38,431 nucleotides of DNA from a virus (IMGVR_UViG_3300045988_147738:1-38431), one strand, 5' to 3'; shown: positions 1 to 14,064, counted from the stretch's first letter. Notes: generated by a model not told the origin, from the letters alone. Numbers and translations are program-made.

Positions 1-74
1 AAATGATTATGGTAGAATGATGATATTGATAAAAGAAAATGATTATGGTAGAATGATGATATTGATAAAAGAAA
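1..74. repeat. 36-bp tandem direct repeat (two full copies and a partial third) containing TTGATA and TGGTAGAAT promoter-like hexamers
   Basis: aatgattatggtagaatgatgatattgataaaagaa is repeated back to back at positions 3-38 and 39-74. Confidence 0.8.
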
Positions 75-242
75 ATGATAGAAGTTTGGTGCCCCCGCTC
101 GGTACCAACTCATCACTCAATTTCATCATTATCGTCATCCTCTGAATTTTTCAAGATACCCTTTCCAAAAAACGTCGAGCCCAGGTATTCTAATCGCCAA
201 TTTCCCAAATAAAAAATACCTGGGCCGACACGTTAATCGAAA

Positions 243-617
243 TTAAATGCGAGAAATCCAGTCGTTGAGGATTTCATCTACGGTTTTGCCCTTCTTAATC
301 GCACCCTTAGAGTTCGTCTCAAAACGGAAACCGGGGAGCTCAATCTTGAAGTTGCCTGGGTCCTTGTAGAATTTAAGGAAACTGTCCATTACCTTAATGA
401 CATCCTCGCCCTTCAACTCTGCGCCCTTATAGCCGACATAGGCCGCATAGTCGTTGATAGCATCGGCAACCGCTTCCGCTCGGGCCATCTTTTCCTTGTC
501 CTTCTTCTGGTCAGCATATGCCTTAGTGGCGTCATTCAGCATTGCAGTCATTTCCTTAGCAATATCCTCAGCGCTCTCGCCATTCATTAAACGCGTCAGA
601 ATATCGTTCTTATCCAT
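243..617 (-). CDS. hypothetical protein (124 aa)
   Basis: Intact ORF with ATG start, TAA stop and an AAGAGG ribosome-binding site. Two tandem TTGACA/TTGACT-N17/18-TATAAT promoters lie at 640-715 on the minus strand. Confidence 0.6.
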   Translation of the reverse strand: MDKNDILTRLMNGESAEDIAKEMTAMLNDATKAYADQKKDKEKMARAEAVADAINDYAAYVGYKGAELKGEDVIKVMDSFLKFYKDPGNFKIELPGFRFETNSKGAIKKGKTVDEILNDWISRI

Positions 618-847
618 TAAAATAACCTCTTTTCATTTTGTATACATATATTATACAAAAAATTTTTTTAAAAGTCAAGCGAGAAAAAAAATGGTTTTTT
701 TTATCATTATAACATAAATTTTTTTTTATGTCAAACCGGGCGGCATATGGGTACCGAGCGGGGCTCGGGTTTTGGGAAAATATGGGTGCATATGAGGGTC
801 GCTAGAATCACGGAAAATTTTCCATATGGGGTGGGAGAATGGAAATT

Positions 848-919
848 CGGACCGCAGCGCCCGCGCTCGGCCCGTTGTACCTCCCCTTTTATTATACCAC
901 ACCGGGCCCGCGTTGTCAA
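848..919. promoter_or_regulatory. promoter-hairpin module copy 1 (minus-strand TTGACA-N17-TGGTATAAT followed by an imperfect GC hairpin)
   Basis: Reverse complement of 891-919 reads TTGACAacgcgggcccggtgtggTATAAT. Hairpin at 848-875. A bidirectional terminator sits immediately to the right at 941-961. Confidence 0.6.
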
Positions 920-940
920 TAGGCAAAATGAACAAAAATT

Positions 941-961
941 AAGGGTGGATTTCTCCACCCT
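941..961. terminator. intrinsic terminator hairpin GGGTGGA-ttt-TCCACCC, with a T-run on the minus strand
   Basis: Perfect inverted repeat followed on the minus strand by TTAATTTTTGTT. Confidence 0.6.
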
Positions 962-1170
962 TAACAGAAGTTGTCAAAAATGTCATCAGACACTTGGCAC
1001 TCATACCAGCCGAAATATTCCCGGCGTGAGCGGAGTTCGCCCTCGATTTCATCCTCGTCTATGTCGGGATTTTGTATGTGGAGATACTGGATGACCCAGT
1101 GCTCGCTCGCGCATACATTCTCGTCAGCGTTGAAGTAAAATTTAGGGGTCACGATTATTCCTCCTCCCAC
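961..1170 (-). CDS. small acidic hypothetical protein; the likely GTG start at 1152 gives about 63 aa
   Basis: ORF ends in TAA. GGGAGGAGG ribosome-binding site 7 nt upstream of the GTG at 1150-1152, overlapping the stop of the upstream HD gene, which suggests translational coupling. Confidence 0.5.
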   Translation of the reverse strand: MGGGIIVTPKFYFNADENVCASEHWVIQYLHIQNPDIDEDEIEGELRSRREYFGWYECQVSDDIFDNFC

Positions 1171-1766
1171 GGCAGTTCGGGCGAAATTTCGTCCAGTTCC
1201 GCCTTGTCGTTATAGTCGGCGTTGATTGCTGGAATGTCGATAAACGCTCGGCTTGCCACATAGTCAGCCATGTGTACCAGTCTGTCGATAGGAGTGAAAG
1301 GTCTGTCCGCCTTGTCGGTAGTCCACTGACCCATGTGAGACTTGATGGCTTGCGTCAACTCATAGGGGCAGTCGCTCTCGAAAAACACCATCCATGTGCG
1401 GCAAACTTGGTCAGCGGCAATCGCGCCGTGCTTGGGGTACAACTCCTTGTCGAACTCGTGTAAGCCATACTTGGCTGTATCGTGGAGCAGACAGGCAACT
1501 CTTGCGTAGTCCTTGCGCTCGTCAGTGAGATACGCCCACTGGCTCATGCGGAGCAATTCCTCACAAAACCACGCGACCGCCTTAGTGTGGCGCACCAAAC
1601 CGCCCTCGCCTTGGCTCATAGCCGGATGGAACTTGCCGGAAGAACTCGCGCCGATAGTCCAGAAATAGTCGGGAACAATACAGTCGAAGTAGTAGCGCAC
1701 GAATGAGCGCAAATCCTCAGACTGAATGAACTCGATTTCGTGGTCAAAAAACTGGCTCTTATTCAT
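1155..1766 (-). CDS. HD-domain metal-dependent phosphohydrolase
   Basis: Motifs HTKAVAWF, LLHDTAKY and HMADYVASR match the HD superfamily H..HD..D pattern. Start chosen at MNKSQFF because of a GGAGG ribosome-binding site; the track's longer ORF runs into the promoter module. Confidence 0.65.
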   Translation of the reverse strand: MNKSQFFDHEIEFIQSEDLRSFVRYYFDCIVPDYFWTIGASSSGKFHPAMSQGEGGLVRHTKAVAWFCEELLRMSQWAYLTDERKDYARVACLLHDTAKYGLHEFDKELYPKHGAIAADQVCRTWMVFFESDCPYELTQAIKSHMGQWTTDKADRPFTPIDRLVHMADYVASRAFIDIPAINADYNDKAELDEISPELPWEEE

Positions 1767-1889
1767 AGATGCCTCCGTGCTGTTGGTGGGTTCCAGCTCC
1801 CTCAGATTGTTTATAGTATAGCGCATTTCGGGACAAAATGCAATAGTCAATTTATACAAATTTTCACCGGAAAAATTGTTGAAAATGTG

Positions 1890-1962
1890 TATTGACAAAA
1901 ATGCCGGGCGCCACAATCGTGAACGCCCGACCCATTATACCACAGTCAGAGGGCGTTGTCAA
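1890..1962. promoter_or_regulatory. promoter-hairpin module copy 2
   Basis: Minus strand reads TTGACAacgccctctgactgtggTATAAT, then hairpin GGGCG-ttcacgattgtg-GCGCCCG. Near-identical to copy 7 at 11226. Confidence 0.65.
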
Positions 1963-1983
1963 TAGTCAAATTGAATAAAAAAA

Positions 1984-2537
1984 TTATACTAAATTTTTTA
2001 TCATTTGTAAGGTTTTATCATACCCATATTTTTCAAGTAAACGAGTGATTTCTTTATCAAAAGGTTTTCTATTTTCAAAATTTAATTTTATATTTTCTTC
2101 ATTTATTACCCATCTTAAATTTTCAAGTCTATTATCTGTTTTTATTCCATTGATGTGGTCAACAACTAAATTGTTCGCATTTATATTTGTTTGAAAAGTA
2201 TTTAATACAAGTCTATGAATTCTATATTTTTTCTTATTTGGTAAATTTAAATATAAATATCCATTATTTAATACCCCTTTATAAAATACACCATCTTTTT
2301 TAATACGCCCCATTGTAGATATTAAATAGTCTGGTAAATCATAACACTGTTTCCATTCTTCATCAGGTAAATCCTAGGTTTCATCTTTTATAATATTATA
2401 ATAATTAGTGTGATTACGTTTTTCTATAAATACTAATTCAATTCCACGTCTTTTACAAAAAGCGATAAAAATATTTTTATCTACTCGTGAAGTTGTTAAA
2501 TTATATTTTTCTATAATTTCTTTTGTTGATAACATTA
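1984..2537 (-). CDS. HNH homing endonuclease (HNH_3-type) with one in-frame TAG at 2376-2378; AT-rich insert
   Basis: C-terminal region YRIHRLVLNTF...NLVVDHINGIKTDNRLENLRWV is a canonical HNH motif. Reading through TAG joins it in frame to an upstream 56-aa HTH-like region and an EEWK...GRIKKDG motif, with an AAGGAGG ribosome-binding site before the ATG at 2537. About 25% GC inside a 50% GC region. Confidence 0.7.
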
Positions 2538-2570
2538 TAGAACCTCCTTTAATATTCTATTATATTTAAA

Positions 2571-2628
2571 AAAACACACAAAATCATTACCCTGTTTTGT
2601 CCTGGGTAATGATTTTGTGTGTTTTATT
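2571..2628. terminator. long perfect hairpin (19-bp stem) flanked by an A-run and a T-run; bidirectional terminator
   Basis: ACACACAAAATCATTACCC-tgttttgtcc-tGGGTAATGATTTTGTGTGT. Confidence 0.7.
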
Positions 2629-3022
2629 ATAGGGCGATTTGGTAAGTTCGACGAATGGTAATTTCAACAGATTTCGGCTTCACAGGACAGGCAAATCTGT
2701 CATTTCTCACAAACACGCCGTATCCCTTTTTCTGCCAGTTCTCACGATTTTTGTCCTCGTATCGCAAAGTGTTATACTTGGAGAGCGGTAGCGAAAAATC
2801 GTAAATAAATTCAGAATTGTGCGGTAAACGGTGAACGGCGGTCTTGCGGTAGTTTCTTGTGTGTTCCTGCTGTCTACGCTTTAAGTCGTTAGTCGTGCCT
2901 ATTTTCAGAATGTAGACACCATTTTCATCATAATAGTGTCCAACATACAAAAATTCCTTGTTTTTCACACTTTTTTCCTCATTTTCTGGGGAAAATGGGG
3001 GATTTCTCCCCCATTTTCTCAA
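2627..3022 (-). CDS. GIY-YIG (T5orf172-like) domain protein
   Basis: FLYVGHYYDENGVYILKIGTTNDLKRRQQEH fits the GIY...YIG...R...E nuclease motif. The start is uncertain: TTG at 3022 or a downstream GTG with a GAGGA ribosome-binding site. Confidence 0.5.
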   Translation of the reverse strand: MRKWGRNPPFSPENEEKSVKNKEFLYVGHYYDENGVYILKIGTTNDLKRRQQEHTRNYRKTAVHRLPHNSEFIYDFSLPLSKYNTLRYEDKNRENWQKKGYGVFVRNDRFACPVKPKSVEITIRRTYQIAL

Positions 3023-3417
3023 CTTTTCGGCTTGCGCTTCTGCACAAGGGTCAGTTCATAGGAATTTTCACCAACCGAAAATGCAATCTGTCTCTCTTTA
3101 TTAGTTATTTCCACATTTTCGCAGGCATTTTCGCTGTTTTCGGTCAAAAATGTTGCGAGTTCAGCGATAATGGACGCTTTCGTGGGATTTGCCTTGCGTT
3201 CCCTTGTGGTGAATTTGTATGCGGTGGGGGTCTTGCGTGTGCCAGTCTTAGCGAATTTCTGTGCGACTTTGAGCTGTTCTTTCGACAGGTCAAAATCCTG
3301 TGCCTTACCCTTGTCGATTTCTCGGTCAGAGTTCCACACGGCTTCCGCTTCATCGGCAGTCCAGCCCATTTTCGCCATAGCGTTTTTCAGCCATTCGGTT
3401 TTGGAGATTTCAGCCAT
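3019..3417 (-). CDS. hypothetical protein (132 aa), paralog of 5565-5921
   Basis: Shares KTPTAYKFTTRERKANPTKASII with RQPTAYKFAPRERKANLTKQGII in the paralog. TGA stop. Confidence 0.6.
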   Translation of the reverse strand: MAEISKTEWLKNAMAKMGWTADEAEAVWNSDREIDKGKAQDFDLSKEQLKVAQKFAKTGTRKTPTAYKFTTRERKANPTKASIIAELATFLTENSENACENVEITNKERQIAFSVGENSYELTLVQKRKPKS

Positions 3418-3478
3418 AAAACACCGCCTTTTCAGATTTTAGAGGAGAGAGGGGGAGAGGTTATCTCCCCCTCTTGTC

Positions 3479-3976
3479 TCACTTGGCGGTGAAATACGCC
3501 TTGCGCTTATCCTCGATACGGTCTGCCTGACCGTCCAGCACCATCTGACGCACCAGAGAAGAAACCTTCTGATTGGACGCATCGGCGATAGCGGGGACAG
3601 ACTTCATCAGAGCGGACACGGTGTACTTCTCGCCCTTGTGGGCGTCCAGAAACGCCTTGATGTCAGCCTTGATACCCTCGTTTGCCACCTGCATGGCGGT
3701 CGGCTTCTTGTCCACGGTGTTCTTGCGGTCGAGCAGTTCCAGCTCGTGGTTCAGGAAGCCCGCCACATCAGCACCGGAAACCTTGACAGTGGCATCACCC
3801 TTGGAAATGTCATAGGTGGCGTCCATATCCACCTTGGACAGAATGGCGGTGAAATAGTCGCGCTTGGTCAGACGAACAGAGGAAGTGGTGTTAGTCATAG
3901 TATCAACCCTTTCTGCGTTTTTAGGTGTCGCCCACCATATTGTTGTTTCCCTCTTGGAACATCTATATTCTAACAC
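3479..3976 (-). CDS. hypothetical protein (165 aa), paralog of 5973-6374
   Basis: Shares LLDRKNTVDKKPT and SNQKVSSLVRQMVLDGQADRIEDKRKAYF with the paralog. A GC hairpin at 3440-3472 separates it from the downstream gene, as in the other copy. Confidence 0.6.
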   Translation of the reverse strand: MLEYRCSKRETTIWWATPKNAERVDTMTNTTSSVRLTKRDYFTAILSKVDMDATYDISKGDATVKVSGADVAGFLNHELELLDRKNTVDKKPTAMQVANEGIKADIKAFLDAHKGEKYTVSALMKSVPAIADASNQKVSSLVRQMVLDGQADRIEDKRKAYFTAK

Positions 3977-4163
3977 ATATCCGAAGCCTTGTCAAGACTT
4001 TTTTTCGGATTTGTGGAATTTTTTTAAGGTACACGCCCCGCCGGGAGGTCTTACCCTCTCCCTTGGAACAATTATATATTACCACACCCTTGGGCAAATT
4101 ACAATAGTCAATACTCACAAAAAAATGGGATTTTCAACATCTAAAATTTGTGCAAAAAAACAC

Positions 4164-4259
4164 TTGACAAAATTTGTGCCACGTGGTATAATGGAAATTT
4201 CGGGCGCCACATCCGTGAGCGCCCGACTCATTTTAACACATTTGAGCGCATTTGTCAAT
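4164..4259. promoter_or_regulatory. promoter-hairpin module copy 3: convergent plus and minus consensus promoters flanking a GC hairpin
   Basis: Plus strand reads TTGACA(4164)-N17-TATAAT(4187). Hairpin GGGCGCC-acatccgtga-GCGCCCG at 4202-4225. Minus strand reads TTGACA(rc 4254-4259)-N17-TAAAAT. Confidence 0.7.
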
Positions 4260-4299
4260 AGGCAATTTGCACAAAAATAAACCAGCGTAGTTGGCTACT

Positions 4300-4625
4300 A
4301 CGCTGGTTCCCCTGTTGATACTCGCCAGCCGTCCGGACAGCCAGCCCACTTCTACACAGCAGACCTAATCAGACGGGCGCAATGCCCACATAGATGGTCT
4401 TTCTCGGCACGCGGTGAATGTGGTTAGAACTTCGTACCCAGTCCCAATTTCTAACGAGGGGTTCAAGATAGCGTTTGAGAAGAAACTGTCGAGGGGACAA
4501 ACACTCTGTTAAAATCCATCTTGGCCGGGGAATTAAATATAATCAATCATTAAACTATCTAATCAAACAATGATTGACTACTAAGGTGGTCGATACAATC
4601 GCCATTTCATTTTTCTCACCTCACA
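4300..4625 (-). ncRNA. candidate noncoding RNA or long leader: an ORF-free interval between a consensus minus-strand promoter and a terminator
   Basis: No ORF longer than 10 codons has a ribosome-binding site. A minus-strand promoter at 4631-4660 (reverse complement TTGACAaatcgccccgcctgtgcTATACT) and the minus terminator hairpin at 4283-4310 bracket it. The plus-strand promoter of module 3 also reads into this interval. Confidence 0.35.
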
Positions 4626-4668
4626 ATATTAGTATAGCACAGGCGGGGCGATTTGTCAAGAGTTTTTT

Positions 4669-5352
4669 TCAAAACTCTAACTCGTCCCGAACGCCATAGC
4701 CGGAGAAATCGAGGATAACAGGAGAAATGCCAATGTACCCAATGTTTGAGCCGTGGAGGTCGTTTATGTGATACTTCTTGACGAACTCACAGAGGGCGAT
4801 AACCTTGCGCTTACCGTGGAGGGAAACGGCGACTTTTGCCCACAATCCATCAAGGTTGCGCCCATAGCCATTTTGGTCTGCCTTGCGGAACTGCCGTTCA
4901 ATCTGATTAACTCGGCAATCAGGAACAGTCTTTGCGATACGGATAAGACGATTTTTCAGCCCATCCTCTTGCCAGCAGATTTTATGAGCACAGTTGGTGA
5001 TAATCTGTTGAGCGGTGAACGCAATCGCTTCGCCATCACGAGGAGAAACAATGTAGCCAGCCAACATAGTGGCGGGGAAAAAATCAGCGAGGTTTGCGTC
5101 TACGGCTTTCTGATACACAGCCACTTCGCGCTCTGCGTCCCGCGTCTCCATAGACCATTTGAGAACATAGCCCAGCTCAGGAAACACCAGACATTCCTTG
5201 GTCGCGCCGTTGCTGGTGACTATCTTGACATTAGGGTATTCGTTGTGGATAACGCGGCACAGACTGTCTGCCTGTCTGACCAGTCTCGGCTTTTCAGATA
5301 CCGCCTGCTGAATGGTCAGGATAAAATCCTGAACTCTCGGAAACTCCATCAT
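4669..5352 (-). CDS. putative protein-kinase-like (APH/ePK-fold) protein
   Basis: HINDLHGSNIGY...ILDFSG resembles a kinase catalytic loop (HxDLHxxN) followed by a DFG-like motif. GAAAGGAG ribosome-binding site. Weak assignment. Confidence 0.35.
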   Translation of the reverse strand: MMEFPRVQDFILTIQQAVSEKPRLVRQADSLCRVIHNEYPNVKIVTSNGATKECLVFPELGYVLKWSMETRDAEREVAVYQKAVDANLADFFPATMLAGYIVSPRDGEAIAFTAQQIITNCAHKICWQEDGLKNRLIRIAKTVPDCRVNQIERQFRKADQNGYGRNLDGLWAKVAVSLHGKRKVIALCEFVKKYHINDLHGSNIGYIGISPVILDFSGYGVRDELEF

Positions 5353-5429
5353 TCATCGCTCCTTTCAGTATCATCATTATAGCACATTACAGGAGAATTA
5401 CAATAGGCAAAATGCACAAAATTTTGCGG

Positions 5430-5523
5430 AAAAAATTTCTGAAATTGTATAATGTGCCGAAAACCGGGCGCCAGGACCGTAAGCGCCCGGCCAAATTATA
5501 CCACACGCGCTCGGATTTGTCAA
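5430..5523. promoter_or_regulatory. promoter-hairpin module copy 4
   Basis: Minus strand reads TTGACAaatccgagcgcgtgtggTATAAT, then hairpin GGGCGCC-aggaccgtaa-GCGCCCG. A plus-strand TATAAT lies at 5448. Confidence 0.65.
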
Positions 5524-5564
5524 TAGGCAAAATACACAAAAAAAATGAGGGAGATTTCTCTCCC

Positions 5565-5921
5565 TCACTTGCGCGGGCAACTAAGCACAACCTTATATTT
5601 TGTTCCATCAAGCGTGAATAAAAATTCGCGCTCCGCGTTGCTCACGTTCAGGTCAGTCGCGCCGTATGTGGTCAGTGTCTCGGTCAGCAAGGTGATAATG
5701 CCTTGCTTCGTAAGATTAGCCTTTCTTTCTCTTGGCGCGAACTTGTATGCGGTCGGCTGGCGTCCTACTCCACGCGCTTTCTTGCTTGCCTTTTCCTGTT
5801 CCTCGGTCAGCGGAAACGGATTGCCGCCCTTGTCGATGATAGCATCTTGAACAATAATGTCCTTTGCTTCGGCTTCGGTACAATCCAGCTTTCGCATGAG
5901 GTCGGCAACTCGGTCAGTCAT
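5565..5921 (-). CDS. hypothetical protein (118 aa), paralog of 3019-3417
   Basis: See the paralog. TGA stop. Confidence 0.6.
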   Translation of the reverse strand: MTDRVADLMRKLDCTEAEAKDIIVQDAIIDKGGNPFPLTEEQEKASKKARGVGRQPTAYKFAPRERKANLTKQGIITLLTETLTTYGATDLNVSNAEREFLFTLDGTKYKVVLSCPRK

Positions 5922-5972
5922 GCGGTACTCCTTTCAGGGTTAGGGTGGGGAGCAATCCCCACCCTTTGAGGT

Positions 5973-6374
5973 TTACGCGCTCACCTTGCGGAAGAACGCC
6001 TTGCGCTTGTCCTCCACGCGCTCCACCTGCTTATCCAGCACCATCTGCCGGACGAGGGAGGACAGCTTCTGATTGCTCATGTCCTTACAGACGGGGAACT
6101 CTTTGAGCATCTCGCTGATGGAATACAGCCGGTTGCTCTCCATAGCGGACAGGACAGAGGTCTTGATAACCTCATTCTCCTGCTGGGTCTTGGTGGGCTT
6201 CTTGTCCACGGTGTTCTTGCGGTCGAGCAGGTCGATTTCGTGGGTGATGAACTCCACCAGCTTGGGGTCAGCCTTGACCTCGGACAGCTTGAGCAGGGCG
6301 GTGAAATTGTCGCGCTTGGTGGGCTTACGGGTGGCGGTGTTAGTGTTAGCCATAGTATCAATTCCTTTCTCCAT
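5973..6374 (-). CDS. hypothetical protein (133 aa), paralog of 3479-3976
   Basis: See the paralog. Proximal promoter at 6399-6450 (reverse complement TTGACAatcccagcgcaagctgtTATAAT). A GC hairpin at 5936-5962 lies between the two genes of the cassette. Confidence 0.6.
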   Translation of the reverse strand: MEKGIDTMANTNTATRKPTKRDNFTALLKLSEVKADPKLVEFITHEIDLLDRKNTVDKKPTKTQQENEVIKTSVLSAMESNRLYSISEMLKEFPVCKDMSNQKLSSLVRQMVLDKQVERVEDKRKAFFRKVSA

Positions 6375-6454
6375 TTGGTTTTGAGGGCTTTACCCTCCTG
6401 ACATTATCTATTATAACAGCTTGCGCTGGGATTGTCAAGACTTTTTTTCAAAAT

Positions 6455-6900
6455 TCTTGATTTTTTTTAATAGTGTCAACAGGGGAACGTCCCACAAGTA
6501 TTCACAACGACTTACAACCTCGCCTGACGAATAAGGTGTTGCTTGTTGGTTCAACGTTTCCATGCGCATGGACGAACTGACCAATCCACTCACTTTTCGT
6601 TCATCGTTTGGGATTACTGCGCTGGTATAGGGCTTACTTCCTTTACTCTCTCACGGTTCGCGACCCGTGGATTTCTTGGGTGGGGCTGTTCCCCTCTTGA
6701 CATTATCAATTATAGCACAGGTGCTGGGGATTGTCAAGAGGGAATTTGCGGGTCAGTTACCGAGTTATCACACCCGCCAGCGTGGCTCTTGCGAGGCGAC
6801 TTGCTGTTCCCTCTTGACATTATGTAGTATAGCACAGGTGGGTATGGATTACAATAGGCAAACTATACAAGTTTCGGGAAAAATAAATAAAAAAATTTAT
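6455..6900 (-). ncRNA. ORF-free interval driven by two tandem minus-strand promoters; candidate noncoding RNA(s)
   Basis: Promoters at 6715-6745 (reverse complement TTGACAatccccagcacctgtgcTATAAT, embedded in the palindrome CCTCTTGACA-N28-TGTCAAGAGG) and 6810-6845. No ORF in 6470-6700 has a ribosome-binding site. The 16-mer GTTCCCCTGTTGAYAC is shared with the interval at 4307. Confidence 0.3.
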
Positions 6901-6912
6901 GTAAAAAAACTC

Positions 6913-7007
6913 TTGACAAAATTGCTGGCGGGGTGTATAATGGTGAATTCCGGCCGAGACGCGCGAAATCGGCCGGCCATTATACCACACCCAGGCACAT
7001 TTGTCAA
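6913..7007. promoter_or_regulatory. promoter-hairpin module copy 5
   Basis: Plus strand reads TTGACAaaattgctggcggggtgTATAAT. Hairpin GGCCG-agacgcgcgaaat-CGGCC. Minus strand reads TTGACAaatgtgcctgggtgtggTATAAT. Confidence 0.7.
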
Positions 7008-7022
7008 TAGGTAAAAATGCAC

Positions 7023-7056
7023 AAAAAATGAGGGGAAAATCCCCTCATTTTTTTAG
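7023..7056. terminator. bidirectional intrinsic terminator
   Basis: aaaaaATGAGGGGAaaaTCCCCTCATttttttt. Confidence 0.7.
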
Positions 7057-7586
7057 TCCATCTGACAAGCGAGAAATGTGTCCCGCTTTTCGTTCAGTTT
7101 GACGATTTCGCCCGCCAGCGCATCAGCCCTCATAGCCAACAGACGCCCATAGCCCTTGCGCCAGTTCAGCATACCATCGGGATTGACCGTGTAAATGAGC
7201 TTCTCCTTTTCCACGGTCTTGGTGTCCTTGCACTCCGTGCGGAAATCCTGTCCATTCATAGCCAGCAGAGCGTTCTGCGCCACTCCCGGCAAACGCATCC
7301 AGTCATACTCGGTCATCAGAGCGTTGCCATCCTTGTCAATCATCCAGATTTCCGCTTCCCACGGGTCAATCTTGATTTCCTTGGTGCTTTTCTCGGTGCG
7401 TACCACCTTGATGATACCCTCGTCCCGCAGGAACGACAGGGAATTGTAGGTGTACCGCCGGTAGTCGTGCTTTGCCTTGGAGAAGTCCTCGGAAGTGAAC
7501 TCCTTGTTTCCGAATAGGTCTACCAGCCACTTGTAGGTCTTGACCGTGCGGTTGAAATTGTGAACATTGGCATAGCGAGCTTTCAT
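7053..7586 (-). CDS. hypothetical protein (about 177 aa)
   Basis: Start taken at MKARYANVHNF with an AAAAGGAG ribosome-binding site. Upstream promoter reads TTGACAacgcccccattccatgcTATAAT, with its -35 inside the terminator loop at 7660-7690. Confidence 0.55.
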   Translation of the reverse strand: MKARYANVHNFNRTVKTYKWLVDLFGNKEFTSEDFSKAKHDYRRYTYNSLSFLRDEGIIKVVRTEKSTKEIKIDPWEAEIWMIDKDGNALMTEYDWMRLPGVAQNALLAMNGQDFRTECKDTKTVEKEKLIYTVNPDGMLNWRKGYGRLLAMRADALAGEIVKLNEKRDTFLACQMD

Positions 7587-7699
7587 AGTTTTTTCTCCTT
7601 TTCTGTTGGTGGGGCTTACCATCGTTTCCCCTACCTTGAATTTGTAATGTTATTATAGCATGGAATGGGGGCGTTGTCAACCCCCATTCCAAACTTTTT

Positions 7700-7912
7700 T
7701 TACGGGGTGTCGTGCTTGCGGTATTCAGTCAGGTCAGGGTCGCCAATCCATTCCGAAAAGTCAACCCAGTAGTCGAATTCATGGAGAATGGTAGTTTCCT
7801 CGCCCTCGAATACTCCACCACAGCAGGCACAAATGACATTTCCGTCATCAGTCTGAATACCCGCCTGAACGCCATCTGAATGGTCGCTCTTAAACAGAAC
7901 TTGCTTCGGCAT
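7700..7912 (-). CDS. small Cys-containing hypothetical protein (70 aa)
   Basis: AAGGAGG ribosome-binding site. Promoter at 7935-7975 (reverse complement TTGACAgtccctttctcatgtggTATAAT). Confidence 0.55.
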   Translation of the reverse strand: MPKQVLFKSDHSDGVQAGIQTDDGNVICACCGGVFEGEETTILHEFDYWVDFSEWIGDPDLTEYRKHDTP

Positions 7913-7979
7913 TTCGCTTACCTCCTTATTTCAGTATAGTCATTATACCACATGAGAAAGGGACTGTCAAGCCCCAATC

Positions 7980-8636
7980 TCAAAACTTGGGAAAACATTT
8001 TACCTCAAAGGGTGCGTCCCATGCGTGGACGTTCTTGGTGTATCGCTTGTGCATCTTCTGACAGGCAAGGAAAATTTCCATTTCCTGCATAGCGTCAGAC
8101 AGGGCGGTGTGTTCTTCCTCAAAGTCAGGATTGCCGTGGAGATAGCCATACACCGCTTCGACAGAGGTTGCACAGGTCTTGCCATTCTTGGAACGCTTGC
8201 CATGCTCTCGGCAATATTCCGCATAGGACTTCTTGTGGGTGATAGTTTCCAGTGCCATAAGATACAGGTCGATGAACTCGAAAGTGTCCAGCAGGTCGCG
8301 GAAACAGGTCTTGCAGAAGTCAAAACCGGAATTGTATGCCATCACATAGCGAACGCCGTAATGGTCGCACAGGTTTTTGATTACCTCATAGGCTTCGCGC
8401 TCCGTGGCGATAGCGGAGATTTCACCAGCTTTGAGCCGTTCGGCATACTTGGGAAAATTCTTCTTGGCATAGCCATCGGTGGCGATTTCGTCATAATGCT
8501 CCATCACCAGCAGGGAAGTGGTGGCAAGGATTTCGCCCTTGCGGTCGTGGATAATCGCGCCCACATTATACATTCCCGTGGGGTGAGCCGCACCGCCTAC
8601 CGTTTCAGTGTCCAGCGTGCAGTAGATATTTTTCAT
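7980..8636 (-). CDS. DEDDh-family (DnaQ-like) 3'-5' exonuclease
   Basis: Exo I motif CTLDTETVGG, Exo II motif YNSGFDF and Exo III motif HTALSDAMQEMEIF. AAAAGGAG ribosome-binding site. Confidence 0.65.
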   Translation of the reverse strand: MKNIYCTLDTETVGGAAHPTGMYNVGAIIHDRKGEILATTSLLVMEHYDEIATDGYAKKNFPKYAERLKAGEISAIATEREAYEVIKNLCDHYGVRYVMAYNSGFDFCKTCFRDLLDTFEFIDLYLMALETITHKKSYAEYCREHGKRSKNGKTCATSVEAVYGYLHGNPDFEEEHTALSDAMQEMEIFLACQKMHKRYTKNVHAWDAPFEVKCFPKF

Positions 8637-8748
8637 TGTTCATTCTCCTTTTCTCTTGGTTGGGCTTACCATCGTGTCCCATACCTTAATTACATTACAT
8701 ATTATAGCAAATAGGGGCGAGATTGTCAACCCCTATTTGCTATTTTTT

Positions 8749-9194
8749 TTACAGGTTGCGCAGAATTTCCATAAGCAGGTCGGCATTGTATGCCATATTA
8801 TGGGTGTTTGCCGTCCACTCGTTGAGGTTGCGCTGTTCATCATCGAATAGAATAGACGCGGGGCAGGTGGCGCAGGTGGACTTGGGGACGCCATAGGGGA
8901 CAATATGGATTTCGTCCCACTGAACGCTGGGGAGATGCTTTGCCAGCCATTCTCGCTTGACCTCGGCTACTTCGGCATTGAACTTATCCGTTCCGCTCTT
9001 GGACAGCCAACTGATGATGCCGATATTGTAGCCACGCGCCTGTAAGCGGTTCAGATAGCGGGCGAGGGTGGAGAAGTGGACAAGCGGGCGGGCGTCCGCA
9101 TATACGCTCGTGTCCGCGGCTTCCAGCTTTGCCAGCCAGTTAGGGTCGCCATACAGGTCGGTGATAGTCCCGTCCATGTCCAGATAGATAGTCA
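8749..9194 (-). CDS. HAD-superfamily hydrolase-like protein (possibly a nucleotidase)
   Basis: N-terminal IYLDMDGTITDL matches HAD motif I (DxDGT). Start taken at MTIYLDMDGT with an AAAGGAAG ribosome-binding site. Proximal promoter at 9225-9262 (reverse complement TTGACAaatcgcgttttatcctgTATAAT). Confidence 0.5.
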
Positions 9195-9344
9195 TAGTAT
9201 CAACTTCCTTTCTTGATTGTAATGCTATTATACAGGATAAAACGCGATTTGTCAACAGTTTTTTCAATTCTGCTCTTGGTCATTTCGCACAAATTTTCGG
9301 GATGCGCGCTTGGGCAAATTTGTTCAATTTACCTATTGACAAAA

Positions 9345-9430
9345 TTGCTGGCAGGGTGTATAATGGAAATTTCGAGCGCCAGGGCCGTGGGCGCTCGGCC
9401 GAGTATACCACAAATAGGGGCGTTTGTCAA
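9345..9430. promoter_or_regulatory. promoter-hairpin module copy 6
   Basis: Plus strand reads TTGACAaaattgctggcagggtgTATAAT. Hairpin GCGCC-agggccgtgg-GCGC. Minus strand reads TTGACA-N17-TATACT. Confidence 0.7.
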
Positions 9431-9442
9431 TAGGTAAAATGA

Positions 9443-9475
9443 ACAAAAAAAATCTCCCAAATTTGGGAGATTTTT
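9443..9475. terminator. bidirectional terminator
   Basis: aaaaaaaaTCTCCCAaatttGGGAGAttttt. Confidence 0.7.
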
Positions 9476-9481
9476 CATTTA

Positions 9482-9696
9482 TTAACTCTTGACAGTGACG
9501 CGGAAGATGGAGCGCAGGATTGCGACAATGAGCCAAACCACCAGCACCAGTTTCCACGAGAACGCGATAACGAAAGAGCCGATGGACACGATGCCAATGG
9601 CGGGGAGAAGCCAGCAGAGAAGCCAGACCAGTCCAGCAGAGAACAGGAAGTCGATGCCAAGGCATACCAGTACCAAAAACAGAGCAGTAAACATTT
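9482..9696 (-). CDS. small membrane protein (about 71 aa, 2 predicted transmembrane helices)
   Basis: Hydrophobic MFTALFLVLVCLGIDFLFSAGLVWLLCWLL... AAGGAGGA ribosome-binding site before the internal ATG. Confidence 0.5.
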
Positions 9697-9707
9697 GTTG
9701 TTCCTCC

Positions 9708-9857
9708 TTAATAAATTTGTTCGCCGTTGTGGTAGCGTTCGTATCTCGCTTCAAGGAAGTCGAAAATGAACTCGAAGTCGTCCGCGTCCGCGGGGTCTAC
9801 GAACGTCTTTTCAAGGATTTCGCCAGTGTGGTCATTGAAAACTTTAATCATTTCCAT
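9708..9857 (-). CDS. small acidic hypothetical protein (about 49 aa)
   Basis: AGGGAGGA ribosome-binding site before MEMIKVFNDHTGEIL. Confidence 0.45.
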   Translation of the reverse strand: MEMIKVFNDHTGEILEKTFVDPADADDFEFIFDFLEARYERYHNGEQIY

Positions 9858-9923
9858 TTTGTTGTCCTCCCTTATTTGATGATACCATTCTAACACAGAG
9901 GGGCTGATTTGTCAACCCCTATT

Positions 9924-10394
9924 TTACAAATTTTTGCTTTCTGCCACGAAATATTTTGCGCCATATTGCGCCACAATGTCTTTGACCTTTTTGCTCTCGG
10001 CTTGCGTGGCACAATAGAAATTGAATAGCGTGTGTTTATTGCTAATCTCAATGTATGAATGGGGAATGTCTCGCAGGTCAAAATCCACAGCGGCACGATA
10101 CTTTGTGGGGACAGTCATTTCAATCTTCCACAATTTTTCCTTGCGCGCCAGCTCTTCCACCCACTTAACCGCCAGTACACCGATGAAATTACAGGCGGCG
10201 GTGATGCTCATTTTTGCCAGTGTAGAAACGCCGTCAATGTTGGTTAGGATAATGACATAGGAATAGAAGCCATAGGTCAGCGCATTGATACCGGCGGCTA
10301 CCCACTTATTGCCTTTGACAGTCAGAATGGATTTGATGGTGGACAGCACCACATTGATAGCGGTACAGACAATGAATAGGATAATTGCGTTCAT
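9924..10394 (-). CDS. membrane protein: N-terminal 3 transmembrane helices plus a C-terminal soluble domain (about 157 aa)
   Basis: Start at MNAIILFIV with an AAAGGAG ribosome-binding site. Promoter TTGACA-N17-TATTAT at 10415-10455 on the minus strand. Confidence 0.5.
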   Translation of the reverse strand: MNAIILFIVCTAINVVLSTIKSILTVKGNKWVAAGINALTYGFYSYVIILTNIDGVSTLAKMSITAACNFIGVLAVKWVEELARKEKLWKIEMTVPTKYRAAVDFDLRDIPHSYIEISNKHTLFNFYCATQAESKKVKDIVAQYGAKYFVAESKNL

Positions 10395-10536
10395 AATCAT
10401 CACTCCTTTTTCAGTATAATAATAATAACACATTTAATTGAAAATGTCAAGAAAAATTTTTGTCGTAGTTAAATTCTCACAAGATTAGATTTTTGTTCCG
10501 TGTAGTTAGTCAGGACTAAACCCAACAAGAGGGGCG

Positions 10537-10908
10537 TTAATGCCCCTCCGTCAGTTTATTATACATACTCCACAGCGTATCACAGGAATTGTTTGTGTTT
10601 TCAGCCATCCATACAATTTGTTCATCAGTCGGCAGGTATTTATCATTTTGAAAACCAAACCATCTATCACAGGACTGATACGCCTTATACTCGTCCTCTG
10701 TCAGCTTGCCACGCAACCACCAGTCCCAGCGGATAGAACTTATCAGAGTATACGCGCACGCGCCCGCGATAGTCAGGGTCAGGATGGCGACAGCCCCGTA
10801 CAGCACCAGCGTGGACTTTATCATACCATACACCAGCAGACCGAAACCGCACACAATGAGGAAATTGCACACCCATTTTTTGAGCGTCAGTTTCTGAAAA
10901 TCAGACAT
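10537..10908 (-). CDS. membrane protein (123 aa, 2 predicted transmembrane helices)
   Basis: AAGGAG ribosome-binding site. The stop codon lies inside the hairpin GAGGGGCgttaaTGCCCCTC. Confidence 0.5.
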   Translation of the reverse strand: MSDFQKLTLKKWVCNFLIVCGFGLLVYGMIKSTLVLYGAVAILTLTIAGACAYTLISSIRWDWWLRGKLTEDEYKAYQSCDRWFGFQNDKYLPTDEQIVWMAENTNNSCDTLWSMYNKLTEGH

Positions 10909-11119
10909 TTTCTCTACTCCTTAACATATTGTCGCAAAATTCATTGGAGAACTTCTCAGCGAAATCATCATCATAGGCGCGATTGGCAATGACTTCCATA
11001 ACCGTACTGATGCCGGACATAAAGTAGGGATTGCCATTGATGGTGTCATACCGCCCTTGGAACATAGGGCATTCACGCAGGTCTGCGAAAACCATCTGAT
11101 ACGCTTTCTTCAACTCCAT
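10901..11119 (-). CDS. hypothetical protein (72 aa)
   Basis: AAGGAGG ribosome-binding site. Overlaps the downstream gene start by 8 nt. Promoter at 11140-11200 (reverse complement TTGACTtctatcccgtaatacggTATAAT). Confidence 0.5.
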   Translation of the reverse strand: MELKKAYQMVFADLRECPMFQGRYDTINGNPYFMSGISTVMEVIANRAYDDDFAEKFSNEFCDNMLRSRENV

Positions 11120-11225
11120 TGTTCTTACCTCCTTGTTTCAGTATAGCCATTATACCGTATTACGGGATAGAAGTCAATCGTCAAAATGCACAAAATTGCG
11201 GTGAAAAATTTGTGAAGTATACCTA

Positions 11226-11275
11226 TTGACAAAAATGCCGGGCGCCACAATCGTGAGCGCGCGGCCGAAAATGTC
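11226..11275. promoter_or_regulatory. promoter-hairpin module copy 7 (degenerate, no clear -10)
   Basis: TTGACAaaaatgccGGGCGCCacaatcgtgaGCGCgcggcc is nearly identical to copy 2. Confidence 0.5.
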
Positions 11276-11331
11276 AAGTGGAAAATTATACAAAAATTGG
11301 GCTGGATTTTTGTTCATCCAGCCCAAATGAT

Positions 11332-11538
11332 TTACTTTCCTGATTTCGGCACGAAACCTCGGCAGAATTGACGACACCAGGTGCGCTCGTTCTTTCGCTT
11401 CATACATTTACTCTCACCCATACTGTTCATTACCTTGCCGTGGTTATAACCCCAGTATTCACAGTTGGAGCATCTTACCTTATCAGGCTCTACACAATAG
11501 CGGTCAGCCAGTTCAGTTCTGATTGCAAAAGTAGTCAT
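11332..11538 (-). CDS. Cys-rich small protein (68 aa), possible zinc-binding protein
   Basis: CxxC...C...C spacing. AAGGAGGA ribosome-binding site. Promoter reverse complement TTAACAaaccttttagggtgtgtTATAAT at 11560-11600. Confidence 0.5.
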   Translation of the reverse strand: MTTFAIRTELADRYCVEPDKVRCSNCEYWGYNHGKVMNSMGESKCMKRKNERTWCRQFCRGFVPKSGK

Positions 11539-11601
11539 TCGGGGCGTCCTCCTTCATTTGATGTATTTATTATAACACACCCTAAAAGGTTTGTTAATAA
11601 T

Positions 11602-11636
11602 TAAAATGAAAAATGTGGGATTTCTCCCACATTTTT
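11602..11636. terminator. bidirectional terminator
   Basis: aaaaATGTGGGAtttcTCCCACATttttttt. Confidence 0.7.
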
Positions 11637-11867
11637 TTATTTATTTTCTAACCGCATTTTGTCAGACCCGATAAGCGCAGCCAGCAGGTTTGAGGTATCA
11701 CGGACTTGGCTCATAGAATACTCTTCGCCAATGTTGGAAATAGCGTATTCTTGTTCGTAGTCATACATCAAATCAAAAAGGTGAGAAATAACTTCGCGGG
11801 CGTCTTGGAGTTTGTCCTTTTCCTCTTGGGTGAGTTGAACCTGAACGTTTGAGGTAATGATGTTCAT
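11637..11867 (-). CDS. small acidic protein, member 1 of a tandem paralog triplet (76 aa)
   Basis: AAAAGGAGA ribosome-binding site. Pattern I..V.V.LT.EE...L.DA..V/I..L.DLMYD.E.EY is shared with the next two genes. Confidence 0.5.
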   Translation of the reverse strand: MNIITSNVQVQLTQEEKDKLQDAREVISHLFDLMYDYEQEYAISNIGEEYSMSQVRDTSNLLAALIGSDKMRLENK

Positions 11868-11882
11868 TTGTTTTATCTCCTT

Positions 11883-12113
11883 TTATTTACTACGGATTTC
11901 CACTTTTTCAGTGGGGGCAAGCATTTGAAGCACATTAGCCGTAAGCGCGACATCAACTCTGTCATAGCCATTCCCGCAAGTATCGCTTACATACTCGCAG
12001 TCATTATCGGCGATGATGTCATACAATTCATTGAGAATGTCATAGGCGTCGCGCAGGGTTTTCCGCTCCTTCTCTGTTATTTTGACATAGATGGGGGCTT
12101 TAATAACTTCCAT
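11883..12113 (-). CDS. small acidic protein, paralog 2 (about 76 aa)
   Basis: MEVIKAPIYVKITEKERKTLRDAYDILNELYDIIADNDCEYV aligns with MEFIEAPIYVKLSDEERNSLNEVYTILNDLVNAAEENDCEYV in paralog 3. GAGGGAGG ribosome-binding site. Confidence 0.55.
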   Translation of the reverse strand: MEVIKAPIYVKITEKERKTLRDAYDILNELYDIIADNDCEYVSDTCGNGYDRVDVALTANVLQMLAPTEKVEIRSK

Positions 12114-12127
12114 TTTGTTTCCCTCCC

Positions 12128-12358
12128 TCAATTACTAATTTCTAGTTTTTCAGCAGGTGCGAACACTCGGCAGATTTCAGCAGCTTGGCTGAGGTCAAAC
12201 CGCCCGTAGCCATCGCCAGTCAACGGATTGCCCACATACTCGCAGTCATTCTCTTCGGCGGCGTTTACAAGGTCATTCAGAATGGTATAAACTTCATTGA
12301 GTGAATTGCGCTCTTCATCACTCAACTTGACATAGATAGGGGCTTCAATAAATTCCAT
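12128..12358 (-). CDS. small acidic protein, paralog 3 (about 76 aa)
   Basis: See paralog 2. AAAGGAGA ribosome-binding site. Promoter -35 inside the hairpin at 12395-12425. Confidence 0.55.
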   Translation of the reverse strand: MEFIEAPIYVKLSDEERNSLNEVYTILNDLVNAAEENDCEYVGNPLTGDGYGRFDLSQAAEICRVFAPAEKLEISN

Positions 12359-12429
12359 TTTGGCATTCTCCTTTCTCTTGGTATTATCTATTATAGCAGA
12401 AATGGGGCTTGTTGTCAAGCCCCAATTTT

Positions 12430-12753: not shown

Positions 12754-12754
12754 A

Positions 12755-12931: not shown

Positions 12932-13049
12932 TGTGAATGACCTCCTTTAATTGATGGTATAAGTATAGCACACCTACTGGGCGTTGTCAACCGTCAAATT
13001 GCACAAATTTTGGGATAAAAAATTGTTGAAAATACCGAACACAAAACGC

Positions 13050-14020: not shown

Positions 14021-14064
14021 GCTCGTTAAAATTTTAACAATCCAATAGCAAAAAAATAGGACGC

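What the first reader, a model, noticed from the sequence alone, without database searches (positions are those of the whole stretch)
4260..4660. ORF-free interval of about 350 nt between a consensus promoter and a terminator, with promoters entering from both sides
A minus-strand promoter at 4631-4660 and the minus-strand terminator at 4283-4310 bracket a region with no ORF that has a ribosome-binding site. The plus-strand promoter of module 3 (4164-4192) also transcribes into it from the left. This could be a structured noncoding RNA, an antisense pair, or an unusually long regulatory leader. It contains the hairpin GTTAGAA-N20-TTCTAAC and the 16-mer GTTCCCCTGTTGATAC, which is shared with the second ORF-free interval at 6470.
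Basis: seen in the sequence. Interest (0 to 1): 0.55.

Follow-up and report, generated by a model that had tools for sequence, protein, structure and literature searches.

The report
Phage early RNA with tiny ORF
The "empty" 350-base interval encodes a conserved, folded minus-strand RNA of an amber-recoded gut phage; it starts with a ribosome-binding site and a nine-codon reading frame ending Pro-Pro-UAG, matches no described RNA family, and has no known function.

Summary
The promoter, the terminator and the opposing plus-strand promoter are real and are conserved in about 20 sequence variants from human-gut metagenomes. The window is a phage that reads TAG as an amino acid in its late genes. 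Between promoter and terminator lies a ~350-nt minus-strand transcription unit that I call RNA1. Base-pair-preserving substitutions support its folding, and the G·U pairs fit only the minus strand. Support is strong for helices P1 and P2, modest for Hx and H3, and rests on one-sided changes for H4 and the terminator. The 3' half is nearly invariant: 90-93% identity where the neighbouring gene is 75-83%.

Three details of the finding are wrong.
- The interval is not ORF-free. A strong Shine-Dalgarno (SD) sequence, GAGGTGA, at the extreme 5' end precedes a 9-codon ORF, M-K-[W/R]-R-L-[Y/L]-[R/K]-P-P-TAG. Frame, start and TAG stop are kept in all variants.
- The second copy of the 16-mer is inverted and has one mismatch, so the two minus-strand RNAs are complementary there.
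- The GTTAGAA/TTCTAAC hairpin is absent from a divergent subgroup.

RNA1 matches no Rfam family, tRNA or tmRNA, and no GenBank phage, plasmid or GTDB genome. My best reading is a stand-alone early RNA in two parts: a ribosome-engaging 5' module and a structured body that acts in trans. Function is not established. A link to UAG decoding is speculative but testable.

The parts
4631..4659 (-). Promoter of RNA1: -35 TTGACA (4659-4654), 17-nt spacer, TG-extended -10 TATACT (4636-4631). The start site is inferred at about 4624.
   Evidence: Consensus scan, 11 of 12 matches. Both hexamers are conserved in all relatives; some carry TATAAT.
4616..4622 (-). Shine-Dalgarno sequence GAGGTGA, at RNA positions +3 to +9, 8 nt upstream of the ATG.
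   Evidence: Read from the sequence. GTGAGGTGA is invariant in 20 variants and the SD-ATG spacing never changes.
4581..4610 (-). Mini-ORF ATG AAA TGG CGA TTG TAT CGA CCA CCT TAG (MKWRLYRPP*). A second in-frame TAG lies at 4578-4580.
   Evidence: Frame, ATG and TAG are kept in all 20 variants. Changes seen: TTG>TTA, CGA>CGT, CGA>AGA and CCA>CCC (synonymous); Y>L, R>K and W>R. It is the only SD-led ORF ending Pro-Pro-stop in the window.
4539..4581 (-). P1: AT-rich hairpin starting at the stop codon, with core UCAAUC/GAUUGA.
   Evidence: Compensatory changes at 4-5 pair positions. Loop length and sequence vary.
4464..4523 (-). P2 domain. An 8-bp closing helix, CAAGAUGG (4523-4516) with CUAUCUUG (4471-4464), encloses a conserved GUUUGU-containing interior.
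   Evidence: 4 of 8 pairs show compensatory double changes, and 0 of 144 cells are non-canonical when the arms are anchored by hand. MAFFT misaligns the type B arms.
4423..4455 (-). The 3' arm lies inside the Hx loop, so in the window's type it could form a pseudoknot with Hx. The 5' arm is not conserved.
   Evidence: The 5' arm is replaced by CTGGTGAAACC in L018, L022 and L032, where GGUGAA can instead pair with UUCACC of the same loop.
4406..4438 (-). Hx: a 6-bp helix, GGUACG (4438-4433) with CGUGCC (4411-4406), closing an invariant 21-nt loop AAGUUCUAACCACAUUCACCG (4432-4412).
   Evidence: One true compensatory change (C-G to U-A in L020). A second pair shows U.G, U-A and C-G. 100% of cells are paired.
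4362..4399 (-). Variable arm: H2, GACC (4399-4396) with GGUC (4365-4362), and the H3 hairpin GGGC...GCCC (4387-4375).
   Evidence: H3 covaries: C-G, A-U, G.U and U.G at the fourth pair, with 0 of 72 cells non-canonical. For H2, 85% of cells pair in the MAFFT alignment; register shifts occur in 3 sequences.
4324..4361 (-). Invariant 16-nt joiner UGCUGUGUAGAAGUGG (4361-4346), followed by the H4 hairpin GCUGGCUGU-CCGG-ACGGCUGGC (4345-4324).
   Evidence: H4 has three G.U pairs in most variants. Four one-sided changes keep pairing; one variant, L042, has a C.A mismatch. The proposed pairing of the joiner with CCAC/UUC of the Hx loop never varies, so it is untested.
4306..4323 (-). Tail GAGUAUCAACAGGGGAAC.
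   Evidence: It is complementary to GUUCCCCUGUUGR in the minus-strand RNA of the second interval. The tail itself varies in L020, L025, L031, L032 and L036.
4272..4306 (-). Intrinsic terminator: an 11-12-bp stem CCAGCGUAGU...ACUACGCUGG followed by UUUAUUUUU.
   Evidence: Scan. The stem is invariant apart from one U-A to U.G change, found in 4 variants.
4164..4192 (+). Opposing plus-strand consensus promoter. Its transcript would run antisense through the terminator and RNA1.
   Evidence: 12 of 12 matches. It is conserved in relatives, including L018, where the facing minus-strand promoter has lost its -10. No plus-strand terminator was called at the shared hairpin.
6473..6488 (-). GTTCCCCTGTTGACAC in the second ORF-free interval. 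As minus-strand RNA it is complementary to the RNA1 tail.
   Evidence: It is conserved in relatives as GTTCCCCTGTTGRCAC, or with an extra T. The whole interval is deleted in L025.

Best explanation
The interval is a stand-alone transcription unit of a TAG-recoded (code 15) gut phage. It lies in the phage's standard-code early region, which is dense in strong promoters.

Shown by sequence and comparison. A host-type promoter and an intrinsic terminator bracket a ~350-nt minus-strand RNA. The RNA has two parts. The first is a 5'-terminal ribosome-binding site with a 9-codon ORF ending Pro-Pro-UAG. The second is a folded body (P1, P2, Hx, H2/H3, H4) whose 3' half is almost invariant.

Inferred. 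Ribosomes load at the very 5' end, translate nine codons and terminate slowly at Pro-Pro-UAG. That occupancy shields the 5' end from 5'-exonuclease and keeps the adjacent hairpin P1 open. The structured body then acts in trans on a partner not yet identified. One candidate contact is the 13-nt tail, which is complementary to the leader RNA of the second ORF-free interval.

On this reading RNA1 works like a dual-function small RNA rather than a leader of a downstream gene.
For: Transcription unit. The promoter and terminator match consensus and are conserved in all relatives.

Selection on the RNA.
- Against relatives whose adjacent gene is 75-83% identical in DNA, the 3' domain is 90-93% identical and the 5' end plus ORF 84-100%.
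- Indels that are not multiples of three exclude a longer ORF.

Helices.
- P2: 4 of 8 pairs compensatory, 0 of 144 cells unpaired.
- P1: 4-5 compensatory pairs.
- Hx: one C-G to U-A double change plus a U.G/U-A/C-G pair.
- H3: one covarying pair.
- H4 and terminator: only G.U-compatible one-sided changes.
- 3' domain overall: 98.3% of cells paired, against 26-42% when partners are slid.
- The G.U pairs would be A.C mismatches on the plus strand.

Mini-ORF.
- A 7-nt SD at ideal spacing sits at positions +3 to +9.
- ATG, frame and TAG are kept in 20 variants.
- 4 synonymous and 3 amino-acid changes were seen.
- It is unique in the window.

Stand-alone status. No ORF lies before the terminator, and three more minus-strand promoters precede the next gene.

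Tail complementarity. The 16-mer pair is expected 0.01 times by chance and is conserved in relatives.

Precedents. PepNL, a 14-aa leader peptide, arrests the ribosome at its stop codon and is relieved by tRNA read-through (PMC11890864). Ribosome- or SD-dependent 5' stabilisers in Bacillus are cited from my own knowledge.
Against: - There is no expression or ribosome-occupancy data.
- Covariation in the 3' domain is thin: one double change, reached by 26-33 of 500 shuffles. The proposed pseudoknot never varies, and one variant breaks an H4 pair.
- The ORF evidence is weak statistically. The 4:3 ratio of synonymous to amino-acid changes gives p about 0.07 against a 1:3 expectation, and Trp3 changes to Arg.
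- Codons 8-10, CCACCUUAG, are also complementary to the SD. A modest hairpin of -6 to -8 kcal/mol forms in every haplotype, so their conservation may be an RNA constraint.
- No covariation links the tail to the second RNA, and the tail itself varies.
- No partner or target was found: nothing else in the window, no excess complementarity to E. coli 16S or 23S rRNA, and no paralogue.
Confidence: 0.5

Rival explanations
1. RNA1 is a purely noncoding structured RNA. The apparent ORF is incidental: the SD-like 5' end pairs with CCACCUUA to form a 5'-terminal hairpin that stabilises the RNA, and no peptide or ribosome is involved.
For: The SD/anti-SD hairpin is the minimum-free-energy fold in all four ORF haplotypes and appears in the consensus fold. 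Peptide conservation is loose, with W>R, Y>L and R>K. The synonymous excess is not significant.
Against: The hairpin is no more stable than shuffled sequence (z of -0.7 to -1.3), and CCA>CCC puts a U.C mismatch in its middle. The 28-nt loop never gains an indel, a stop codon or a lost ATG in 20 variants, whereas other loops vary freely. A 7-nt SD at ideal spacing from an ATG on an exposed 5' end would normally recruit ribosomes (my own knowledge).
Confidence: 0.25
2. The mini-ORF is a sensor or a trap for UAG decoding. Early in infection, Pro-Pro-UAG can be resolved only by release factor RF1, and slowly, so ribosomes (and possibly RF1) pile up on an abundant RNA. Once the phage's amber-reading tRNA appears, read-through to the next stop clears them. 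This would change RNA1 stability or folding, or RF1 availability, and help switch the cell to the phage's code.
For: Late genes carry 2-32 in-frame TAGs each, so efficient suppression is essential. The ORF stop is TAG in 20 of 20 variants, whereas 16 of 18 putative early genes end in TAA or TGA. A non-TAG stop follows within 1-5 codons. The PepNL precedent shows stop-codon arrest relieved by tRNA read-through. Pro-Pro-stop is a known poor termination context (my own knowledge).
Against: This is entirely inferential. It does not explain the elaborate and nearly invariant 3' domain. About 60 kb of another code-15 phage, phAss-1, holds no analogous mini-ORF. No suppressor tRNA or release-factor gene lies in any DNA held for this phage group. 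The TAG also sits inside the anti-SD pairing.
Confidence: 0.1
3. The functional unit is a sense/antisense pair. The conserved plus-strand promoter at 4164-4192 makes an antisense RNA across the terminator and 3' domain. Duplex formation or polymerase collision then sets the level of RNA1 and of the upstream 227-aa gene.
For: The plus-strand promoter is a perfect consensus match. It is conserved even where the facing minus-strand promoter has decayed. The shared hairpin lacks a T-run on the plus strand. Dual-strand constraint could help explain the invariance of the 3' domain. Similar face-to-face cassettes recur at 5430-5545 and 6892-7029.
Against: The G.U pattern shows selection on the minus-strand fold only. 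An antisense role does not need P1, P2 or the mini-ORF. In the 6892-7053 cassette the plus-strand transcript would stop at a bidirectional terminator after about 105 nt, which suggests that these promoters make short RNAs. This reading is compatible with the best explanation rather than exclusive of it.
Confidence: 0.1
4. RNA1 is a cis-acting leader, either riboswitch-like or a leader-peptide attenuator. Its terminator would be conditionally read through to control downstream genes.
For: The architecture of promoter, leader ORF, structured region and terminator resembles attenuators of Gram-positive bacteria. The 3' strand of H4 (GCUGG) could pair weakly with the 5' arm of the terminator (CCAGC).
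Against: The terminator is followed by three more minus-strand promoters (4258..4230, about 4108, and 3995..3967) before the next gene. The candidate antiterminator is only 5 bp, against a 9-bp H4 and an 11-12-bp terminator. The leader ORF lies about 290 nt from the terminator. No riboswitch or T-box model matches, even at E<=10.
Confidence: 0.05

Closest known systems
Dual-function small RNAs of Gram-positive bacteria (Staphylococcus aureus RNAIII with its hld gene; Bacillus subtilis SR1 with SR1P)
   Same: An independent promoter and terminator, a small ORF with its own SD, and a multi-hairpin RNA body that could act by base-pairing.
   Different: No sequence or Rfam relationship. The ORF has only 9 codons and sits at the extreme 5' end. 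No target has been shown. The RNA is phage-encoded.
Nascent peptides that arrest the ribosome at a stop codon (E. coli TnaC and PepNL; human cytomegalovirus uORF2, which ends Pro-Pro-stop)
   Same: A short SD-led ORF with a C-terminal proline before the stop. PepNL arrest is relieved by tRNA read-through of the stop (PMC11890864), which is the logic proposed for UAG here.
   Different: Those peptides control a downstream gene in the same transcript; here the next element is a terminator. Arrest has not been demonstrated, and the peptide sequence is unrelated and only loosely conserved.
5' mRNA stabilisers in Bacillus (phage SP82 polypurine element, the ermC leader with a stalled ribosome, the cryIIIA STAB-SD); cited from my own knowledge
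   Same: A strong SD, or a stalled ribosome, within a few nucleotides of the 5' end of a transcript in a Firmicutes-type context.
   Different: Those elements stabilise mRNAs of real genes. Here the protected body is a noncoding structured RNA. No decay data exist.
Phage lambda bar minigenes; cited from my own knowledge
   Same: A phage-encoded, SD-led ORF of a few codons whose effect comes from the act of translating it rather than from a protein product.
   Different: The bar ORFs have 2 codons and act through peptidyl-tRNA drop-off in hosts defective in peptidyl-tRNA hydrolase. There is no homology, and RNA1 carries a large conserved structure.

Membership tests
Any Rfam 15 family (riboswitches, T-box, 6S, RNase P, SRP, tmRNA, glmS, pRNA, GOLLD/ROOL and others) | A covariance-model match at or near the family's gathering score | tested here: not met
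   No gathering-level hit in the window. At E<=10 only snoRNA, miRNA and CRISPR-repeat noise 25-50 bits below threshold appears, both for the window copy and for the divergent L018 copy.
tRNA / tmRNA | Cloverleaf or tRNA-like domain with a tag reading frame | tested here: not met
   ARAGORN finds none in the window or in 16 related loci.
Independent bacterial-type transcription unit | A sigma-70-type promoter and an intrinsic terminator on the same strand, conserved in relatives | tested here: met
   conservation. Actual transcription cannot be tested with these tools.
Structured RNA under selection | Helices kept through compensatory or G.U-compatible substitutions | tested here: met
   P1, P2, Hx and H3 show compensatory changes. 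H4 and the terminator show only compatible one-sided changes, except for one C.A mismatch in L042. The 3'-domain statistics are modest.
Ribosome arrest peptide acting at termination | A short ORF with an SD and a conserved C-terminal motif at the stop codon | tested here: met
   The SD, the ATG and the ending ...[R/K]-P-P-TAG are invariant in 20 variants.
Ribosome arrest peptide acting at termination | Demonstrated stalling, and a downstream gene or structure controlled by it | not testable with these tools
   Needs toeprinting or ribosome profiling. No downstream ORF lies before the terminator.
Dual-function base-pairing small RNA | A seed region complementary to a target RNA, with supporting covariation | tested here: inconclusive
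   A 13-nt complementarity to the second interval's RNA is conserved, but it does not covary and the tail is variable.
Riboswitch or attenuator leader | A regulated ORF downstream in the same unit without its own promoter, and a competing antiterminator | tested here: not met
   Three promoters follow the terminator, and only a 5-bp alternative pairing exists.
Type I toxin-antitoxin | A hydrophobic toxin ORF of about 25-60 aa plus an overlapping antisense RNA | tested here: not met
   The ORF has 9 basic or proline residues. Only the convergent antisense promoter fits.

The most novel reading that the evidence does not exclude
RNA1 is part of the machinery by which an amber-recoded phage switches the infected cell from the standard code to code 15. 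Its abundant 5' mini-ORF ending Pro-Pro-UAG would hold ribosomes, and possibly RF1, at an RF1-only stop, or would report when UAG starts to be read as glutamine. The invariant structured body would couple that state to RNA stability or to a trans-acting activity.
Probability: 0.1. Interest if true: 0.9.

Novelty: new variant of a known kind. Interest (0 to 1): 0.6.

Why it matters
Phages that reassign TAG must get from a host that terminates at TAG to a state where genes with up to 32 in-frame TAGs are read through. How RF1 is overcome, and how the switch is timed, is an open question.

This locus is a conserved, probably highly expressed early RNA from such a phage. Its only reading frame ends at an RF1-only stop in one of the poorest termination contexts, and it is fused to an unusually constrained fold. 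That makes it a concrete candidate that is cheap to test.

Even if it has nothing to do with recoding, it is an undescribed RNA family from an abundant human-gut phage lineage. It is also a reminder that intervals called ORF-free can begin with a ribosome-engaging mini-ORF.

Tried and rejected
- Known RNA families: Rfam at gathering and at E<=10, on the window and on L018, gave nothing credible. ARAGORN found no tRNA or tmRNA.
- Host mimicry or host origin: two invariant 20-21-mers are absent from 185,579 GTDB genomes. There is no match in GenBank phages or plasmids.
- More distant homologues: four pattern scans of IMG/VR returned only the same five contigs or chance hits. The metagenome scan added 14 loci, all from the same lineage.
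- Paralogues: nhmmer over 336 kb of held sequence found only the terminator palindrome.
- Trans targets: no other complement of the invariant loop or joiner exists in the window. Duplex energies against E. coli 16S and 23S rRNA are no better than for shuffled sequence. The host is not E. coli, so only universal rRNA segments were effectively tested.
- A hidden ORF under code 15 or the standard code: read-through of TAG adds at most 5 codons, and indels that are not multiples of 3 break every longer frame.
- A single closing helix CCCCU/AGGGG for the 3' domain: not consistent across variants.
- A genome-wide covariation scan was swamped by the split between type A and type B sequences.
- MAFFT plus RNAalifold misaligns the type B P2 arms, so I used hand-anchored counts.
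- A generality test of the mini-ORF idea in phAss-1 (60 kb) was negative.
- The upstream 227-aa protein: no Pfam, PHROG or PDB sequence match. The AlphaFold2 model was too poor (pLDDT 48) to use in a fold search.

Full report
**Context.** The window is a phage.
- Positions 1-16,000 are about 47% GC. They carry short minus-strand genes in the standard code behind many perfect TTGACA-17-TGnTATAAT promoters.
- Positions 16,000-38,431 are about 30% GC. They form long plus-strand ORFs only if TAG is read as sense, with 2-32 in-frame TAGs per gene. Virion-protein families occur there.
- Relatives are 100-200-kb IMG/VR contigs and human-gut metagenome contigs.
- The only GenBank similarity is a 140-nt promoter-region match to phAss-1, a 'code 15 clade' phage thought to infect Clostridia (PMC10607447).

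**The observation.**
- The minus-strand promoter (4659..4631, 11 of 12 matches plus TG), the minus-strand terminator (4309..4279 plus a T-run) and the opposing plus-strand promoter (4164-4192, 12 of 12) are all present.
- The longest ORF in between is 43 aa.
- The 16-mer occurs twice, against 0.01 expected, but the second copy (6473-6488) is on the other strand and has one mismatch.
- The GTTAGAA/TTCTAAC arms are present, with a 19-nt loop.

The inferred start site is about 4624. The transcript begins GUGAGGUGAGAAAAAUGAAAUGG..., which is a 7-nt SD at positions +3 to +9, eight bases, then ATG. The ORF reads MKWRLYRPP, then TAG, then TAG (4610..4578). No other SD-led short ORF ending Pro-Pro-stop exists in the window.

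**Relatives.**
- I used the upstream 227-aa protein as an anchor and an invariant 21-mer as a probe. This gave 20 distinct versions of the interval.
- All of them keep the promoter, the SD, the SD-ATG spacing, the ATG, the frame, the TAG stop and the terminator.
- Most resemble the window ('type A'). L018, L022 and L032 ('type B') are only 57-64% identical in the P1 and P2 segments.
- Where the neighbouring gene is 75-83% identical in DNA, the 3' domain is 90-93% identical. Outside one variable hairpin it is almost invariant.
- Indels that are not multiples of three occur in loops and in the tail, so nothing longer than the mini-ORF is coding.

**Structure.** Counts with hand-anchored helices give the following.
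- P1, the AT-rich hairpin starting at the stop codon: compensatory changes at 4-5 positions.
- P2 (CAAGAUGG/CCAUCUUG): 4 of 8 pairs with double changes, for example G-C/A-U and A-U/C-G/U-A. No unpaired cell in 144.
- Hx (GGUACG/CGUGCC): one C-G to U-A double change, and one pair seen as U.G, U-A and C-G.
- H3: C-G, A-U, G.U and U.G at one position.
- H4: four one-sided changes, all keeping a pair.
- Terminator: one U-A to U.G change.

The counting tool, run on the 3' domain, gives 98.3% of cells paired against 26-42% for slid partners. It finds only one double change, which 26-33 of 500 shuffles also reach. One later variant has a C.A mismatch in H4. So support is strong for P1 and P2, modest for Hx and H3, and rests on compatibility alone for H4 and the terminator.

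Nearly all one-sided changes are interconversions between G.U and Watson-Crick pairs, and H4 carries three G.U pairs in most variants. On the plus strand these would be A.C mismatches, so the minus strand is the selected RNA.

In type B its 5' arm is replaced by a segment whose GGUGAA can pair with UUCACC of the same invariant 21-nt Hx loop. Both types can therefore mask part of that loop from the 5' side, as a pseudoknot. This pairing, and a possible one between the loop (CCAC, UUC) and the invariant joiner (GAAGUGG), never vary and remain untested.

**The mini-ORF.** Haplotypes differ as follows.
- Synonymous changes: TTG>TTA, CGA>CGT, CGA>AGA and CCA>CCC.
- Amino-acid changes: Y>L, R>K and W>R.
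- The 4:3 ratio, against a neutral expectation of about 1:3, gives p about 0.07. That is suggestive only.
- The codon after TAG is TAG, TAA, CTA, TTA or TCA. A non-TAG stop follows within 1-5 codons.
- Of 18 putative early genes, 16 end in TAA or TGA.

One caveat applies. CCACCUUAG is complementary to the SD, and a modest hairpin forms in every haplotype, although it is no more stable than shuffled sequence. Part of the conservation may therefore be an RNA constraint.

**Identity.**
- No Rfam family matches at any useful threshold.
- There is no tRNA or tmRNA.
- Nothing similar occurs in GenBank phages, plasmids or GTDB genomes.
- There is no paralogue.
- There is no excess complementarity to rRNA, and no other target in the window.

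**The 16-mer.** In RNA1 it is the tail between H4 and the terminator (UCAACAGGGGAAC). The second interval is transcribed on the minus strand from the promoter at 6737..6709. It carries GUUCCCCUGUUGR, so the two RNAs could pair over 11-13 bp. Both motifs are conserved, but no covariation links them. The tail varies in five variants. L025, which has lost the second interval, has an altered tail. This contact is a hypothesis.

**Mechanism.** The following is shown: a conserved promoter-to-terminator unit, selection on a minus-strand fold, and a conserved SD-led 9-codon frame ending Pro-Pro-TAG.

The rest is inferred. Ribosomes occupy the 5' end and terminate slowly. Pro-Pro-stop is a poor termination context (my own knowledge), and arrest at a stop codon relieved by tRNA read-through has a precedent in PepNL (PMC11890864). 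That occupancy would stabilise the RNA and open P1, and the body would act in trans.

A leader or attenuator role is unlikely, because three promoters follow the terminator. The conserved opposing promoter makes antisense control plausible as an added layer.

The most novel reading still open is a role in the switch to UAG read-through. It explains the invariant TAG, but nothing tested here supports it directly. A partial scan of phAss-1 found no analogue.

**Verdict.** This is a real, undescribed, conserved phage RNA with a ribosome-engaging mini-ORF. Its function is unknown. It deserves experimental follow-up, mainly because of its setting in a recoded phage.

Noticed in passing
window 16000-38431 versus 1-16000: There is a sharp compositional and coding split. 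The late plus-strand genes are about 30% GC and TAG-recoded (2-32 in-frame TAGs each). The early minus-strand region is about 47% GC and uses the standard code. Three late genes without TAG (25792-26727, 26709-27851, 31933-33039) are more GC-rich and use CAG for Gln.
   Followed up: partly
window 6440-6702 (minus strand; promoter 6737..6709): The second ORF-free interval also looks like a conserved RNA. Its ends are conserved, with 5' GUCAAGAGGGGAACAGCCCC and 3' GGGACGUUCCCCUGUUGAC, around a variable, indel-rich middle. There is no terminator before the next promoter, so it may be a long leader of the 133-aa and 118-aa genes. It is deleted in relative L025.
   Followed up: partly
window 4143-4280, 5430-5545, 6892-7029: Three repeated cassettes hold face-to-face consensus promoters whose start sites lie about 25 nt apart across a GC-rich hairpin. 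The hairpin covaries in L018. Each cassette sits just after a minus-strand terminator. The promoter at 6913-6941 and the bidirectional terminator at 7023-7053 would give a plus-strand RNA of about 105 nt.
   Followed up: partly
window 4669-5352 (minus strand): The 227-aa protein immediately upstream has no terminator of its own, so RNA1 is also its 3' UTR. It carries the protein-kinase-like motifs VLKWS, HINDLHGSN and ILDFSG. It matches no Pfam, PHROG or PDB sequence, and the AlphaFold2 model was poor (pLDDT 48). It is always adjacent to RNA1 in relatives.
   Followed up: partly
window 3019-3976 and 5565-6374: These are paralogous two-gene modules (165 aa + 132 aa and 133 aa + 118 aa). They share motifs such as LLDRKNTVDKKPT and RERKANxTK. 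Each has its own consensus promoter.
   Followed up: no
window 6740-6819 (minus strand): A unit of about 80 nt lies between two minus-strand promoters. Several early transcripts begin with the same leader, AUAAUGUCAAGAGGG(G)AAC, which resembles the RNA1 tail motif CAACAGGGGAAC.
   Followed up: no
related contigs: Many public assemblies of this region stop at about 2-2.5 kb. This probably happens because the repeated promoter and terminator cassettes break short-read assembly. The lineage is common: some protein clusters have hundreds of members.
   Followed up: no
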